Source: a virus (taxonomy: Duplodnaviria > Caudoviricetes). From it: a stretch of DNA of 64,000 bases. The position numbers and the translations under genes are program-made. Every line of letters begins with the position of its first letter. Position 1 is the first letter of the stretch. This document shows, piece after piece, positions 24,366 through 27,837 of the stretch. A model generated the notes under the pieces. That model saw only the letters and a program-made list of their open reading frames with translations. It had not been told where the DNA came from and did not search any database. Where the stretch lies: positions 1,600-65,599 of the IMG/VR virus record IMGVR_UViG_3300044706_000051; one strand, written 5' to 3'.

Positions 24366-24403
24366 AGAGCCCCTGGAGTAGCGGCCAGGGGCTCTTCGCT
24401 TTT
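24366..24403 (+). terminator. terminator-like hairpin
   Basis: 11-bp stem AGAGCCCCTGG/CCAGGGGCTCT followed by TCGCTTTT. Confidence 0.65.
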
Positions 24404-24689
24404 CTCGGACTCAGGTCACCGTTGACCCGTCACCGGGACGCGAAACGGGGAGCACCCCGTAGAGCTGCTCCCCGTTCATGTGCCACCCCCCGTCTCGGTG
24501 AACCGGAGGCGACCATACCGCACCTACCGGACCAACGGGAGGACGTATCAACTGGAGGACAATCCGCGACCAGCGTCGTATCTAACTGGCGTCCGCGCGA
24601 CGTACTCTGCGAGACACCCAAGAAAAAGTGCAGCTCCCCGGCGTGACCCAGGGAGCTGCCGACCGGTACCTGCAAGGAGGACACCGATC

Positions 24690-25349
24690 ATGCCAGCGAA
24701 AACTACGCGCTCGGCGCCGGCAGCGCCAGCTCCCGAGCCGACCTCGACTGTGACCCTGGTGGCCGAGGGCGACGCCGCCCTGGTGCTGCACAACGAGCGC
24801 CTGGCCGACCCTCTCGACCCCGTCACCCGGGCCATCGCCGCCATTTCCAAGAAGCGCTCCAAGACCGAGGCCGACCATCTGGAGATCGCCCGACTCGAAT
24901 TCCTGGGCGGCCTGTACCTGAACGGGCCGGCGGAATTCGATGACGGCCACTTCATCATGGGCAAGGATGTCAAGCCGGCCATCCCGGCCTGGAACGTCCT
25001 GCGCTGCCTTCAGGACGGCGCCACCCGGCACAAGCGGGGCAAGGACGTCCTGCGGGGCTGCCACCCCCTGACGGAGTTCGCCGAGCTGCACTATGACGGC
25101 CCGACGGACCCGGACCTGATGTGGAAGTCCGGCGACTTCTCGCTGCGGAAGACCGTCGGCGTCCAGCGCGCCCGCACTGTCCGCACCCGGCCGTTCTTCT
25201 CGCCCTGGAGCGTCACGCTGCGGATCGAGGTGGACCCCGTCGTCTTCGACCTCGACACCCTGGCCGTGATGTGGCGGGAGGCCGGCCGGTACGCCGGGCT
25301 CGGCGAGATGCGCCCCGTCTACGGTCGCTTCATCGGGCGGATCCAGTGA
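24690..25349 (+). CDS. standalone Cas7/RAMP-like protein (Vipr-like), 219 aa
   Basis: beta1 VTLVAEGDAALVLHN; PAIPAWNVLRCL (cf. P.IP.SS.KG); thumb-like VGVQRARTVRTRP; C-terminal Gly-rich loop AGRYAGLGEMRPVYGRF; AAGGAGG RBS; abuts the pentamer array. Confidence 0.75.
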   Translation: MPAKTTRSAPAAPAPEPTSTVTLVAEGDAALVLHNERLADPLDPVTRAIAAISKKRSKTEADHLEIARLEFLGGLYLNGPAEFDDGHFIMGKDVKPAIPAWNVLRCLQDGATRHKRGKDVLRGCHPLTEFAELHYDGPTDPDLMWKSGDFSLRKTVGVQRARTVRTRPFFSPWSVTLRIEVDPVVFDLDTLAVMWREAGRYAGLGEMRPVYGRFIGRIQ

Positions 25350-25555
25350 GGGGGCCGGCCAGCTCCGAGCCGGCCCACCGCCTCGGGGTGGCCCTGCGCC
25401 GCCTCGGGACGATCATGGGCATCAAGAGCGTCCGGGCCGAGGAGGAGATCCGCCAGGAGAATCACGGCGGTGACCCTGTCGGATTGACAGCGAAGATGGA
25501 AGCTCGGACGGCCGAAATCGAGAAAATCGTCAAGCTCTCGGAGGAAGGGCTGTAA
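25346..25555 (+). CDS. 69-aa hypothetical protein between RAMP-like gene and array
   Basis: GTGA overlap with RAMP stop; ends TAA 25553-25555 just before the array. Confidence 0.55.
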   Translation: MRGPASSEPAHRLGVALRRLGTIMGIKSVRAEEEIRQENHGGDPVGLTAKMEARTAEIEKIVKLSEEGL

Positions 25556-25561
25556 CTCCCC

Positions 25562-26586
25562 ATGGCCGGCCGCGGCTTCGCAGCGTTCGGCATGGCGGGG
25601 CTACACCCGTCCCGGCTGGGCTTGGTTCGGCTCCCCTCGGCACGGTGTGGCGCGTCGCGGCACGTCAAAGGGCGCGTCGTGGCGAGGCTCGGCCATTCGA
25701 ATCACCGGCGAGTCCCGGCTCGGCAAGGCCCGGCAGGGCCAGGCACGGCTCCCCAGCGGCATGGCGCGGCGATACGTTGTCTCGGCAAGTCAAGGCTCGG
25801 CCAAGCAGTTCGCGGCGGGTCTTGGCGCGGCATGGCTCCCCTGAGTCTCGTCTGGCCCCTGGTGCCAGGGCTGGGCGAGGCAGGGAGCGGCTCCCCGCGG
25901 CGCTGCTGGTCCGGGTGAGGCATGGCTCGGTAGGGCTCTGGCTCGACCCGGCATGGCTCAGCTCGGCCAGGCGTGGCTCCCCTCATGACCAGGCACGGCA
26001 GGACACGGCCAGGCGAGGCAAGGTGTGGCTCCCCTCTGGCTGGACCGGTCCTGGCTAGGCGAGTGTGTCCGGGCCAGGCTTGGCAGGGCACGGTACGGCT
26101 CCCCTGCGGCTGGGCCTGGCGAGGCTGTGCGGTGTCGTGACCGGGCATGACAGGTCAGTACCCGGCAAGACGGGGTTAGGCAGGGTGCGGCACGGCGTGG
26201 CTCCCCTTCACTCGGCGAGAGGAGGTATGGCTGATCTAGGCGAGGCGGGACGTGACTCCCCGCGGGTGAGGCATGGTGCGGCGTGGCAGGCAGTGGCGGG
26301 GCAGGACGGGACAAGGCTCGGCTCCCCAAGTCCCGGCATGGCGCAGCAAGGCATGGCAAGACGCGACCCGGCAAGTGTTGGCGAAGGCGAGTCGAAGGCC
26401 CGGCGTGGCTCCCCGGGGTTCGGCTGGGCCATTCCCGGCGCCGCTGGGCCAGGCAGGACAGGGGCGTGGCAGAGCTGGGCACGGCTTGTCGGGGCTCCCT
26501 ATGGCACGGCAAGGTGCGGCCAGGTGCGGCCAGGCCGGACATGGCATGGCGAGGTGAGGCTAGGCCGGTCCCGGCCGGGCTCCCCC
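25562..26586 (+). ncRNA. GGY-NN pentamer guide-like array, about 13 units delimited by GGCTCCCC
   Basis: 5-nt periodicity of GGC/GGT (variants GAC, GTC, AGC) separated by variable dinucleotides; delimiter at 25629, 25747, 25834, 25889, 25975, 26027, 26097, 26199, 26254 (variant), 26320, 26407, 26493 (variant), 26578. Confidence 0.85.
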
Positions 26587-26600
26587 TCATAAAGGCAGAA

Positions 26601-26628
26601 CGGCGGCTCTCACGGGAGCCGCCGCTTT
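26601..26628 (+). terminator. intrinsic terminator closing the array
   Basis: CGGCGGCTC/GAGCCGCCG stem followed by CTTT, between array and convergent gene. Confidence 0.75.
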
Positions 26629-26643
26629 GCTATGACCTGAAGG

Positions 26644-27837
26644 TCAGGCCAAACCGAGAATCCGCCTCGCCTCAGTAACCTCAGACGGCGGCCGACCGCG
26701 CCTCGGCCTGTACTGATCGATGACCCGCTGTGCCTCAGCCCGGCTCATGGTCCCGCCGCCGTTCGTCTCGGCCGGGGCTGGTGTGGCCTTCTTGGCCGGC
26801 GCCGCCCGCTTGGCCGGGGTGGCCTTCTTGGCCGGCGGGGCGGTCTTCTTGACCGGCGGTGCCACCTTCTTGGCGGCCGGCGCCCTCTTCGGTGCGGTGG
26901 CCTTGGCCGCCGCCGGCTTCGACTCGACGGCCATGGCCGCCTTGGGCGCCGGCTGGGCCTCGGCCATGATGGCCTCGACGGCGGCGACGAACGCTTCGGA
27001 TGCCTTCTCCAGTACGGCCAGGAGGCGGCGCTGGAATTCCGACATGCCCGTCACCTGCCTGACCTCCTCCACGATGTCTTGCTCCATATCCAGTACGGCC
27101 ACGTCGGTGTCATCCTCCTCGGGAAGCGAGAATTCCTCGTCCTCGGGCAGCTCCCCGTCCTCGTCGGCCTCGTCCTCGTCCTCGTCAGAATCGAGATCGT
27201 CCTCGGCCTCGGGCTCAGGGAAGTCTGAGGACTCGTCGTCCTCGTCCCCATTTTCTTCCTCTTCCGCAGGAATTTCATCCTCGGGAGCCGGTTGACCTGC
27301 ATTTTCAGCCTCGTTCAGGTCATTTTCGGCCACGATTTCGGCCTCGGGGATCTCGTCCGACACCGGCTCGTCGGCCTCCTCGTCTCCGGTCACCAGCTCG
27401 ATGCGGTCGAGCCCCCGGGTCAGCTCCAGCAGGGCGATGCCCTTGGCGTCAGCCTCCCGCACGGCGTCGAGGCCGGCCTCGTCCTCGTCGTCCCAGAGGA
27501 CGATCAGCTTGCCGTTGCGGGCCTCTTCCAGGAGGCTGGCAAGTTTGTGGGCCACGGCGGTGGACTGGTGCTGCCGGCGGGCGCCGCCCAGGAGTGCCTT
27601 CAGCTCCTTAACCTTCGCCGTTGAATCATCAACAACAGCCTCGACAGGGACCCCGTTGTCCACGGCGAAGGAGCTGACCACCTCCAGGGCGGGGTTCCAG
27701 AACGCCTTGGTCATGGGGAGGATGAACTTGGCGTTGCCTCCCTCGGCGTCGATCAGGTCACGCAGCAGGGCGTACGCATTGCGTTTCTCGACCTTGCCTG
27801 TCCCGACGAACCCCAGCGTCAATTCCGAGCGCGCCAT
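26644..27837 (-). CDS. multidomain protein: Rossmann/SLOG-like N-domain, acidic linker, histone-H1-like PAKK repeats, C-terminal AT-hook
   Basis: LGFVGTG...IVLWD; D/E-rich tract; PAKKA/PAKRA repeats; YRPRRGRPP. Confidence 0.75.
   Translation of the reverse strand: MARSELTLGFVGTGKVEKRNAYALLRDLIDAEGGNAKFILPMTKAFWNPALEVVSSFAVDNGVPVEAVVDDSTAKVKELKALLGGARRQHQSTAVAHKLASLLEEARNGKLIVLWDDEDEAGLDAVREADAKGIALLELTRGLDRIELVTGDEEADEPVSDEIPEAEIVAENDLNEAENAGQPAPEDEIPAEEEENGDEDDESSDFPEPEAEDDLDSDEDEDEADEDGELPEDEEFSLPEEDDTDVAVLDMEQDIVEEVRQVTGMSEFQRRLLAVLEKASEAFVAAVEAIMAEAQPAPKAAMAVESKPAAAKATAPKRAPAAKKVAPPVKKTAPPAKKATPAKRAAPAKKATPAPAETNGGGTMSRAEAQRVIDQYRPRRGRPPSEVTEARRILGLA

What the first reader, a model, noticed from the sequence alone, without database searches (positions are those of the whole stretch)
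24690..26628. Minimal RNA-guided system: standalone Cas7/RAMP-like gene plus GGY-NN pentamer array
Seen: a plus-strand island in a minus-strand genome. It holds a 219-aa protein with RAMP hallmarks (N-terminal beta strand with Gly, PAIPAWNV, thumb-like hairpin, terminal Gly-rich loop GLGEMRPVYGRF), a 69-aa ORF, about 1 kb of strictly 5-nt periodic GGC/GGT-NN sequence, and a terminator. No cas1, cas2, cas3, cas5, cas6 or CRISPR repeat-spacer array is present. Established: Cas7/RAMP proteins polymerise along guide RNA with fixed periodicity. Inference: each protomer binds a constant GGY triplet and displays the variable NN for target reading. From memory, this matches the recently reported phage VIPR (Viral Interference Programmable Repeat) architecture. 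I cannot verify that literature here, and this instance and its guides appear uncharacterised.
Basis: partly seen in the sequence, partly recalled or inferred. Interest (0 to 1): 0.96.

Follow-up and report, generated by a model that had tools for sequence, protein, structure and literature searches.

The report
Phage VIPR guide-RNA system
This is a genuine new example of the VIPR systems described in 2026 (a lone Cas7-like protein plus guide RNAs built from GGY-NN five-letter repeats), carried by an uncultured Streptomyces-like phage; the kind is known, but one guide spells a rival version of the gene next door.

Summary

- **Array.** The 1-kb array is not strictly periodic. It holds 13 units of 52-118 nt, each a run of GGYNN pentamers ending in GGCTCCCC. 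81% of it lies in in-phase chains.
- **Conservation.** 38 of 39 related loci with enough downstream sequence carry the same kind of array.
- **Accessory gene.** 32 of 37 loci carry a 56-78-aa ORF coupled to vipr by an RTGA overlap. It is predicted to be a helical hairpin and is not similar to the type II accessory.
- **Novelty.** VIPR was published in 2026, and this scan has logged it 263 times on other DNA, so this is a new member of a known kind.
- **Targets.** No external target was found. One integrase hit fell to a control.
- **Guide 13.** Read by the published 1-nt-skip rule, it decodes to the C-terminal motif of the adjacent gene (z 8.8). It fits foreign alleles better (up to 28/30) than the phage's own copy (22/30).
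- **Tentative.** Own copies in this and sister loci differ at six-fold codons (11 of 17 sites, P 0.003).

The parts
24630..24659 (-). Hairpin in the divergent intergenic region just upstream of vipr. It is terminator-like on the minus strand and contains GCTCCCC. It may insulate the island from antisense read-through.
   Evidence: 12-bp stem followed by a T-run on the minus strand; fold; the element is not conserved in clade loci.
24674..24680 (+). Shine-Dalgarno sequence AAGGAGG, 9 nt before the vipr ATG.
   Evidence: Read directly from the sequence.
24690..25349 (+). vipr: a 219-aa single-RRM RAMP (Cas7-like) protein with the G-loop GLGEMRPVYGRF.
25346..25555 (+). Accessory ORF of 69 aa, translationally coupled to vipr through a GTGA overlap. 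Predicted to be a two-helix hairpin.
   Evidence: An ORF of 56-78 aa starts at -1 of the vipr stop in 32 of 37 clade loci. Alignment A3. AlphaFold2 pLDDT 88, helices 9-40 and 44-68. No Pfam, PHROG, PADLOC or ESM Atlas match. Not similar to wV8 gp95 or MakoManhole gp77.
25556..26585 (+). vrRNA array of 13 head-to-tail units: 25556-25636, 25637-25754, 25755-25841, 25842-25896, 25897-25982, 25983-26034, 26035-26104, 26105-26206, 26207-26261, 26262-26327, 26328-26414, 26415-26499 and 26500-26585. Each unit is a run of GGYNN pentamers ending in GGCTCCC(C).
   Evidence: There is no codon periodicity and no Rfam family.
26503..26577 (+). Guide 13: 15 in-phase pentamers, the longest clean guide. Its NN dinucleotides, read as codon positions 1-2, spell T-K/N-A-H/Q-A-H/Q-R-I/M-I/M-D/E-D/E-Y-R-P-R.
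26601..26624 (+). Intrinsic-terminator-like hairpin that closes the operon. It is shared with the convergent gene.
   Evidence: 10-bp stem, 8 G-C pairs, then CTTTGCT.
26701..26745 (-). Near-self site: codons 365-379 (SRAEAQRVIDQYRPR) of the adjacent convergent gene 26644-27837. It is in frame with guide 13 under the 1-nt-skip rule and matches 22 of 30 bases.

Best explanation
The stretch 24690-26624 is a VIPR (Viral Interference Programmable Repeat) operon of an uncultured, Streptomyces-phage-like tailed phage.

One transcript probably runs from a promoter in 24400-24670 to the terminator at 26601-26624. It would encode Vipr, a coupled 69-aa helical accessory protein, and 13 vrRNA units.

By homology with SUSP1 Vipr, the protein would polymerise along each vrRNA at one protomer per pentamer. 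H34, R167, E206 and R208 would hold the GGY bases, and each NN dinucleotide would be presented for pairing. The filament would then bind double-stranded DNA whose sequence matches NN-x-NN-x (1-nt skip) and block transcription.

The GGCUCCCC(U) element ends each guide and probably marks the processing or filament-stop site.

The targets are most likely genes of competing, related phages. Guide 13 reads the conserved C-terminal motif of the family of the adjacent gene. It fits foreign alleles well and the phage's own allele poorly.

Shown here: homology, fold, array architecture, clade-wide conservation and the guide-13 decode. Inferred: transcription, processing, filament formation, DNA silencing and the identity of the rivals.
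For: - Sequence homology to the solved SUSP1 Vipr: E 4.7e-17 over residues 27-216.
- GGY-contact residues named in 10.64898/2026.04.26.720927 align to H34, R167 and R208. These are 90-100% conserved in 82 family members.
- Pentamer statistics. In the window's in-phase tracts, G1 is 95%, G2 77% and Y3 97%, while NN is near-uniform in a 72% GC region. Across the clade, NN carries 0.01-0.10 bits against 0.7-1.7 bits for GGC.
- 13 tails in the window. GGCTCCCC is the top non-periodic 8-mer in clade arrays: 101 copies in 31 of 39 loci.
- 38 of 39 clade loci with at least 400 nt downstream have a + strand array.
- Phage context: DNA polymerase, primase, DnaB, portal, tape measure and an IMG/VR record.
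- No self-target beyond the wrong-skip controls.
- Guide 13 decode against the phage's own proteome: BLOSUM 62 against a null of 35.5 +/- 3.0, z 8.8. The hit is in frame in the adjacent gene.
- Homologues P0284 and P0277 allow 28/30 and 27/30 NN matches, against the own copy's actual 22/30.
- Sister-locus guides decode to the large terminase and the major head protein.
Against: - No expression, processing or binding data exist for this locus.
- No external target was found. Four exact 20-base scans of IMG/VR gave 0 hits. The one 18-base guide with hits (4, of which 3 are in integrases) was beaten by its reversed-order control, which got 8.
- Many units have frame slips or degenerate pentamers. 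Tail-registered runs are as short as 2-4 pentamers in units 3, 4 and 11, so some units may be inactive.
- W178 of SUSP1 Vipr, which stacks on G2, is Met here.
- The tail is only 8-9 nt and has no predicted pseudoknot.
- The fit of foreign alleles to guide 13 is a maximum inferred from peptides, not from DNA.
Confidence: 0.93

Rival explanations
1. Guide 13, and similar guides in sister loci, act in cis on the phage's own flanking gene. The partly matched filament would bind the 3' end of the convergent gene, either to tune its expression or to stop convergent transcription from entering the array. On this reading the system is partly self-regulatory, not purely anti-rival.
For: The near-self sites lie right beside the VIPR locus: 119 nt away in the window, 188 nt in L045, 342 nt in L022 and 597 nt in L050. 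Fisher combined P is 0.005. In the window and in L045 the site is at the 3' end of the convergent downstream gene.
Against: NN matches to own genes are only 63-82%. The discovery paper found no self-targets at 80% or more, and reports that perturbing NN pairing abolished silencing. The mismatches are enriched at synonymous codon-family switches, which looks like avoidance, not tuning. Foreign alleles fit guide 13 better.
Confidence: 0.12
2. The locus is a decaying relic. Vipr may still fold, but most of the array is degenerate and no longer yields working guides.
For: There are frame slips between about 15 chains. About 23% of in-register pentamers lack a canonical GGY. Tail-registered runs of only 2-8 pentamers occur in 10 of the 13 units, against the published 9-16.
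Against: vipr and the coupled ORF are intact, with a strong ribosome-binding site. The same architecture, tails and degree of internal degeneracy recur across about 40 loci. The discovery paper itself notes frequent internal degeneracy of vrRNAs. NN entropy is maximal while GGY is kept. Guide 13 is clean and carries meaningful information.
Confidence: 0.05
3. The 1-kb repeat is not RNA-guide DNA at all. It would instead be a coding low-complexity gene or a DNA-level element such as an origin or a packaging site.
For: ORFs of 118-210 aa can be drawn across it on both strands. A comparable array in phage Donkeykong is annotated as a CDS.
Against: Period-3 power is 0.2-0.6 inside the array, against 5-17 in flanking genes. 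A 5-nt period cannot keep a reading frame. The motif is strand-specific and always lies beside a Vipr homologue. In the homologous SUSP1 system the RNAs are expressed and co-purify with Vipr.
Confidence: 0.01

Closest known systems
Type II VIPR of Escherichia phage SUSP1 and the Pseudomonas fulva prophage (bioRxiv 10.64898/2026.04.26.720920; structures in .720927, PDB 36pp)
   Same: A homologous Vipr protein over its full length. Conserved H/R/R contacts to GGY. GGY/NN pentamer guides of under about 120 nt, each capped by an invariant 3' element. The operon order is vipr, then accessory gene, then downstream array. Phage-borne. The decode is wobble-aligned.
   Different: Only about 29.5% identity to the Felixounavirus (SUSP1-group) Vipr. 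The G-loop is E-M where SUSP1 has D-W. The tail is 8-9 nt (GGCUCCCCU), with no pseudoknot evident. There are 13 contiguous units, not 3-4. The accessory protein is a roughly 65-aa helical hairpin with no similarity to the 146-aa ORF that follows vipr in wV8. The host range is actinomycete-like.
[quoted passage not shown] S18 legend)
   Same: Units abut with no spacer. The pentamer register often runs through the tail (GGCTC + CCCNN) into the next unit.
   Different: The figure and the type tables are not available here. Whether this clade is the one described, and which of types I-VII it belongs to, could not be determined.
Class 1 CRISPR backbone subunits (Cas7: Csm3, Cmr4, type VII Cas7, Cas7-11 domains)
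   Different: No repeat-spacer array. No cas1, cas2, cas5, cas6 or cas10. 5-nt guide periodicity, not 6-nt. Gapped reading with a 1-nt skip. Sequence identity is 8-14%.
Solo (orphan) vrRNA arrays of VIPR-null phages (bioRxiv 10.64898/2026.10.15.759431)
   Same: The same pentamer code. Guides are aimed at close relatives and are wobble-aligned.
   Different: The window's array has its own vipr. The orphan case applies to the Donkeykong array noticed in passing.

Membership tests
VIPR system | A Vipr protein homologous to the characterised Vipr family | tested here: met
   phmmer against PDB 36pp_D 'SUSP1 Vipr protein': E 4.7e-17, query residues 27-216 against chain residues 10-187 of 202. tblastn finds the Felixounavirus homologues at 29.5% identity.
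VIPR system | Residues that hold GGY in SUSP1 Vipr (H17, R138, D177, W178, R179) | tested here: inconclusive
   They align to H34, R167, E206, M207 and R208. Three are identical and 90-100% conserved. D to E is conservative. W to M is a change that is fixed in this clade. The position aligned to W178 is variable family-wide.
VIPR system | vrRNAs made of alternating GGY/NN pentamers with hypervariable NN (published range 9-16 repeats) | tested here: met
   In-phase GGYNN chains cover 81% of 1035 nt. NN is near-uniform, and GGY is 77-97% conserved. Clean tail-registered runs range from 2 to 15 pentamers, and only units 8, 10 and 13 reach 11-15.
VIPR system | An invariant 3' tail that caps each variable tract | tested here: met
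   GGCTCCC(C) ends all 13 units. The consensus GGCTCCCCT is conserved in 31 of 39 clade loci. It is much shorter than the SUSP1 pseudoknot tail, and no structure was predicted.
VIPR system | An accessory vap gene in the operon | tested here: inconclusive
   A coupled ORF of 56-78 aa is present in 32 of 37 loci. It has no similarity to the ORF after vipr in wV8 or MakoManhole: hhalign probability 0.2% or less. Sequences of vap2-6 are not available.
VIPR system | Non-CRISPR, mostly viral genomic context | tested here: met
   An IMG/VR virus record with phage replication and structural genes. No CRISPR array or cas operon.
VIPR system | Target recognition by the 1-nt-skip rule, wobble-aligned, with no self-target at 80% or more | tested here: inconclusive
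   Guide 13 decodes in frame to the adjacent gene family, z 8.8. Foreign alleles allow 27-28 of 30. Own-genome matches for long guides are 73% or less and no better than the wrong skip rules. No external DNA target was recovered.
VIPR system | vrRNAs are expressed, processed and co-purify with Vipr | not testable with these tools
   This needs sRNA-seq and pull-down.
CRISPR-Cas class 1 | A repeat-spacer array plus cas adaptation and processing genes | tested here: not met
   No CRISPR-DR Rfam family, no repeat-spacer tandem array and no cas1, cas2, cas5 or cas6 in 64 kb. Vipr does not hit the PADLOC Cas models.

The most novel reading that the evidence does not exclude
In this clade, VIPR cassettes aim guides at rival alleles of the genes that flank the cassette. 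Examples are the K/A/P-rich RGRP protein in this window, and the large terminase and the major head protein in sister phages.

The carrier's own alleles would be shielded partly by synonymous switches between the two codon families of Arg, Ser and Leu. That is the one synonymous escape route from a guide that ignores wobble positions, and a loophole in the published argument that escape requires amino-acid change. The arrangement would resemble the marker exclusion and self-immunity seen with homing endonucleases.

A clade-specific helical-hairpin protein of about 65 aa, coupled to vipr, would be a new accessory component.
Probability: 0.3. Interest if true: 0.7.

Novelty: new member of a known kind. 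Interest (0 to 1): 0.4.

Why it matters
As a VIPR locus it is ordinary. The class, its code and its structures were published in 2026, and this scan alone has flagged it in more than 200 genomes. Its value lies in the details.

- It extends the system to a well-populated soil, actinophage-like clade. That clade has a minimal 8-9-nt guide terminator and a tiny coupled accessory protein that the main text of the published work does not describe.
- It offers an internal, sequence-only confirmation of the 1-nt-skip code, because guide 13 spells the neighbouring gene family.
- If the codon-family-switch and flanking-gene patterns hold up, they would show how a phage avoids silencing itself, and they would show that synonymous escape from VIPR is possible at Arg, Ser and Leu codons. 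That bears on guide design and on the arms-race argument in the October 2026 preprint.

Tried and rejected
1. **Integrase target.** Guide 26330 (18 specified bases) hit 4 IMG/VR contigs. Three hits were at NPMAxIKAPKPD of tyrosine integrases, in frame and wobble-aligned. A reversed-order, composition-matched control gave 8 hits, so I rejected the match as chance.

2. **Exact IMG/VR scans.** Both halves of guide 13, guide 26134 and guide 26265 (20 specified bases each) gave 0 hits. Exact-only scans cannot see matches of 80-95%.

3. **Nucleotide-level cross-targeting.** I tested 137 clade guides against 0.4 Mb of related contigs. None reached 90%. At 80% or more, the 1-nt rule scored 22 guides against 10-13 for the wrong rules, which is only a marginal excess.

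5. **Donkeykong gp47 as a divergent Vipr.** hhalign probability was 0.15%.

6. **The 69-aa ORF as vap1-like or as the Gordonia 'DNA binding protein'.** No similarity. Pfam, PHROGs, PADLOC and the ESM Atlas gave nothing.

7. **The tail-like 5' UTR hairpin as a conserved operator.** It is not conserved in the clade.

8. **Ribozymes between the units.** No Rfam hit down to E = 1.

9. **VIPR type assignment (I-VII).** Not possible, because the type tree and tables are in figures and supplements that are not held.

10. **The neighbouring gene's family.** No Pfam, PHROG or PDB match, and no homologue in cultured phages.
Full report
**What is there.** The window is an IMG/VR virus record of 65.6 kb, 66% GC, estimated 67% complete. 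It encodes a DNA polymerase, primase, DnaB helicase, portal, tape measure and minor tail protein on the minus strand. Its portal is 56-61% identical to those of Streptomyces phages such as BRock and Alone3.

Between the replication and structural modules lies a plus-strand island:
- a ribosome-binding site, AAGGAGG, at 24674-24680
- a 219-aa ORF at 24690-25349
- a 69-aa ORF at 25346-25555, whose GTG start overlaps the upstream TGA stop
- 1,030 nt of pentamer repeats at 25556-26585
- a G+C-rich hairpin with a T-tract at 26601-26624

**The array is real and non-coding.** Period-5 Fourier power is 5.8, while all other periods tested are below 1.1 and period 3 is 0.25. Flanking genes show period-3 power of 5-17. 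GGY-NN-GGY occurs 76 times, against 7.2 +/- 2.7 in dinucleotide-preserving shuffles. The other 63 kb of the window has only isolated chains of 5-6 pentamers.

The array is not strictly periodic. About 15 in-phase chains cover 835 of 1,035 nt, with frame slips between them. It is punctuated 13 times by GGCTCCC(C). The exact 8-mer GGCTCCCC occurs 11 times in the array and once elsewhere on the + strand. This gives 13 units of 52-118 nt, each ending in a run of GGYNN pentamers in register with its tail.

Within these runs, position 1 is G in 95%, position 2 is G in 77%, and position 3 is C or T in 97%. Positions 4 and 5 are close to equiprobable, even though the region is 72% GC. No Rfam family, ribozymes included, matches the region.

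**The protein is a Vipr.** A plain phmmer search of PDB sequences hits chain 36pp_D, 'SUSP1 Vipr protein', at E 4.7e-17 over residues 27-216. Pfam and PADLOC have nothing for it. PHROGs places it in phrog_4652, a family of unknown function.

The cryo-EM preprint names the residues that hold GGY in SUSP1 Vipr: H17, R138, D177, W178 and R179. In the alignment they correspond to H34, R167, E206, M207 and R208. H34, R167 and R208 are 90-100% conserved across the family. The E-M pair is fixed in the close clade.

The family is large, with 2,029 clusters at 50% identity. The nearest cultured-phage homologues are only about 41% identical (Gordonia phages). The SUSP1 group is 29.5% identical.

**Conservation of the whole locus.** I retrieved 49 further clade loci from metagenome and IMG/VR contigs.
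- Of the 39 with at least 400 nt downstream of vipr, 38 have a + strand pentamer array that typically starts about 200-290 nt after vipr. The exception has its array upstream, and several loci have arrays on both sides.
- A de novo k-mer count shows that GGCTCCCC(T) is the most enriched non-periodic word in these arrays, with 101 copies in 31 of 39 loci.
- The logo upstream of the tail alternates GGC (0.7-1.7 bits) with NN (0.01-0.10 bits, or 0.34 bits at the pentamer next to the tail). The median unit is 84 nt.

**The small ORF is a real gene.** In 32 of the 37 loci examined, an ORF of 56-78 aa starts one base before the vipr stop (an RTGA overlap). Most of these share the consensus L..R.A..TS..R.R..D..R.E..GG....L..R......RLE..A..LE.

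It is predicted with pLDDT 88 to be a two-helix hairpin, with the conserved GG at the turn. It has no detectable similarity to the 146-aa ORF that follows vipr in the SUSP1-like phage wV8, or to the 179-aa 'DNA binding protein' that follows vipr in Gordonia phage MakoManhole. More distant Vipr loci lack it. Whether it corresponds to any of the published vap1-6 could not be checked. Its function is unknown.

**Comparison with the literature.** VIPR is described in three 2026 preprints.
- 10.64898/2026.04.26.720920 defines Vipr, vrRNAs of 9-16 YNNGG repeats with an invariant 3' tail, vap genes, the 1-nt-skip rule, transcriptional silencing of competing elements and seven types.
- 10.64898/2026.04.26.720927 gives the filament and triplex structures.
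- 10.64898/2026.10.15.759431 shows competition between a phage and its satellite, wobble-aligned targeting of essential genes, and orphan vrRNAs.

This scan has already recorded VIPR-type loci 263 times in at least 216 genomes. The finding is therefore a new member of a known kind.

**Targets: what failed.**
- Under the published rule, none of the guides matches the phage's own genome better than under wrong skip rules.
- Four exact 20-base scans of IMG/VR found nothing.
- An 18-base guide hit three homologous tyrosine integrases in frame at NPMAxIKAPKPD. A reversed-order control pattern got twice as many hits, so I do not count this match.
- Nucleotide-level cross-tests of 137 clade guides against 0.4 Mb of related contigs were not significant.

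**Targets: what held.**
- Guide 13 (15 clean pentamers, 26503-26577), read as codon positions 1-2, decodes to T-K/N-A-H/Q-A-H/Q-R-I/M-I/M-D/E-D/E-Y-R-P-R.
- Its best match in all six frames of the window is SRAEAQRVIDQYRPR: codons 365-379 of the convergent gene 119 nt away, in frame.
- The BLOSUM score is 62, against 35.5 +/- 3.0 for permuted guides (maximum 44), giving z 8.8.
- At the nucleotide level the match is 22 of 30.
- A 3-nt codon cannot turn into a 5-nt pentamer by simple duplication, so the resemblance lies in the coded information.
- The gene has about 13 homologues with the C-terminal motif M-S/T-K-A-A/Q-A-Q-K/R-I-I/M-D-x-Y-R-P-R-R-G-R-P-P.
- Every decoded residue occurs at its position somewhere in that family. 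P0284 and P0277 would allow 28/30 and 27/30 matches, more than the phage's own copy.
- The own copy uses AGG at both Arg codons where the guide reads CG. AGG is 6.3% of Arg codons in 13 long genes of this phage, although it is 5 of 22 in this gene.

The most economical reading is that guide 13 targets rival alleles of this gene and that the carrier's own allele escapes. The gene's function is unknown. It has an acidic tract, a K/A/P-rich tract and an RRGRPP ending, and it has no Pfam, PHROG or PDB match.

**The same pattern in sister loci (tentative).** The peptide-level decode of all 137 long clade guides gave seven outliers, with excesses of +16 to +26 against a background of 0.9 +/- 4.4.
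- Five are to the guide's own contig and to genes beside the VIPR locus. These include a large terminase (L050) and a major head protein (L045).
- The proximity to the locus is itself non-random (Fisher combined P 0.005).
- At six-fold codons where guide and gene agree on the amino acid, the gene uses the other codon family at 11 of 17 sites, against 5.25 expected (P 0.003). Self pairs give 10 of 13. Cross-contig pairs give 1 of 4.

This fits self-avoidance through the only synonymous changes that a wobble-blind guide can see. The October preprint argues that escape needs non-synonymous change, and it does not mention six-fold codons. The sample is small and the test was post hoc, so I give this reading about 30%.

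**Limits.** There are no expression or binding data. 

Noticed in passing
L009:2450-2836 (Mycobacterium phage Donkeykong NC_051648.1, 36870-37256): The annotated CDS 'gene 48, hypothetical protein' is a GGCNN pentamer array of about 380 nt (period-5 power 3.7-5.5, period-3 power 0.2-0.4). It lies in the immunity region. Donkeykong has no Vipr homologue by tblastn, and the upstream gp47 is not a Vipr (hhalign 0.15%). It looks like an orphan 'solo' vrRNA array in a cluster-A-type mycobacteriophage that has been mis-annotated as a protein gene. Such arrays have so far been reported for Enterobacteriaceae phages.
   Followed up: partly
window:26644-27837 (-): A 397-aa protein with an N-terminal globular part, a very acidic tract, K/A/P-rich repeats and a conserved C-terminus ...YRPRRGRPPSEVTEARRILGLA. 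It has about 13 metagenomic homologues, no Pfam, PHROG or PDB match, and no homologue in cultured phages. It is the apparent cognate of guide 13.
   Followed up: partly
L050:8404-8473 -> L050:6772-6813; L045:4480-4534 -> L045:4722-4754: Guides in two sister VIPR loci decode in frame to the large terminase (phrog_2; 23/28 nt) and the major head protein (phrog_2522; 15/22 nt) encoded next to the cassette.
   Followed up: partly
window:24630-24659: A 12-bp hairpin, GCAGCTCCC...GGGAGCTGC, just upstream of the vipr ribosome-binding site. It contains the tail-like GCTCCCC and looks like a minus-strand terminator. It is not conserved in the clade loci.
   Followed up: yes
window:25544-25561 and clade loci: A tail-like element often sits right after the small ORF's stop: GGCTGTAA|CTCCCC here, and about 15 of 31 loci under a loose pattern. 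This could give the first vrRNA a defined 5' boundary.
   Followed up: partly
window array and clade logo: The second G of GGY is the least conserved of the three fixed positions. It is G in 77% of the window's pentamers (A 13%, T 9%) and 66-90% in the clade. In the same clade, the residue aligned to SUSP1 W178, which stacks on G2, is a fixed Met. This may be a relaxed G2 pocket, but that is speculative.
   Followed up: no
L047:9100-9720 (=L002:3200-3720), L024, L033, L049, L051: Several clade loci carry a second GGYNN array upstream of vipr, on the same strand and with the same tails. The window has only the downstream array.
   Followed up: partly
window:3394-4797 (-): A 468-aa ORF with a weak Cas4-like PD-(D/E)XK nuclease match in PADLOC (E 1e-5). 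It is 20 kb from the VIPR locus and is not linked to it.
   Followed up: no
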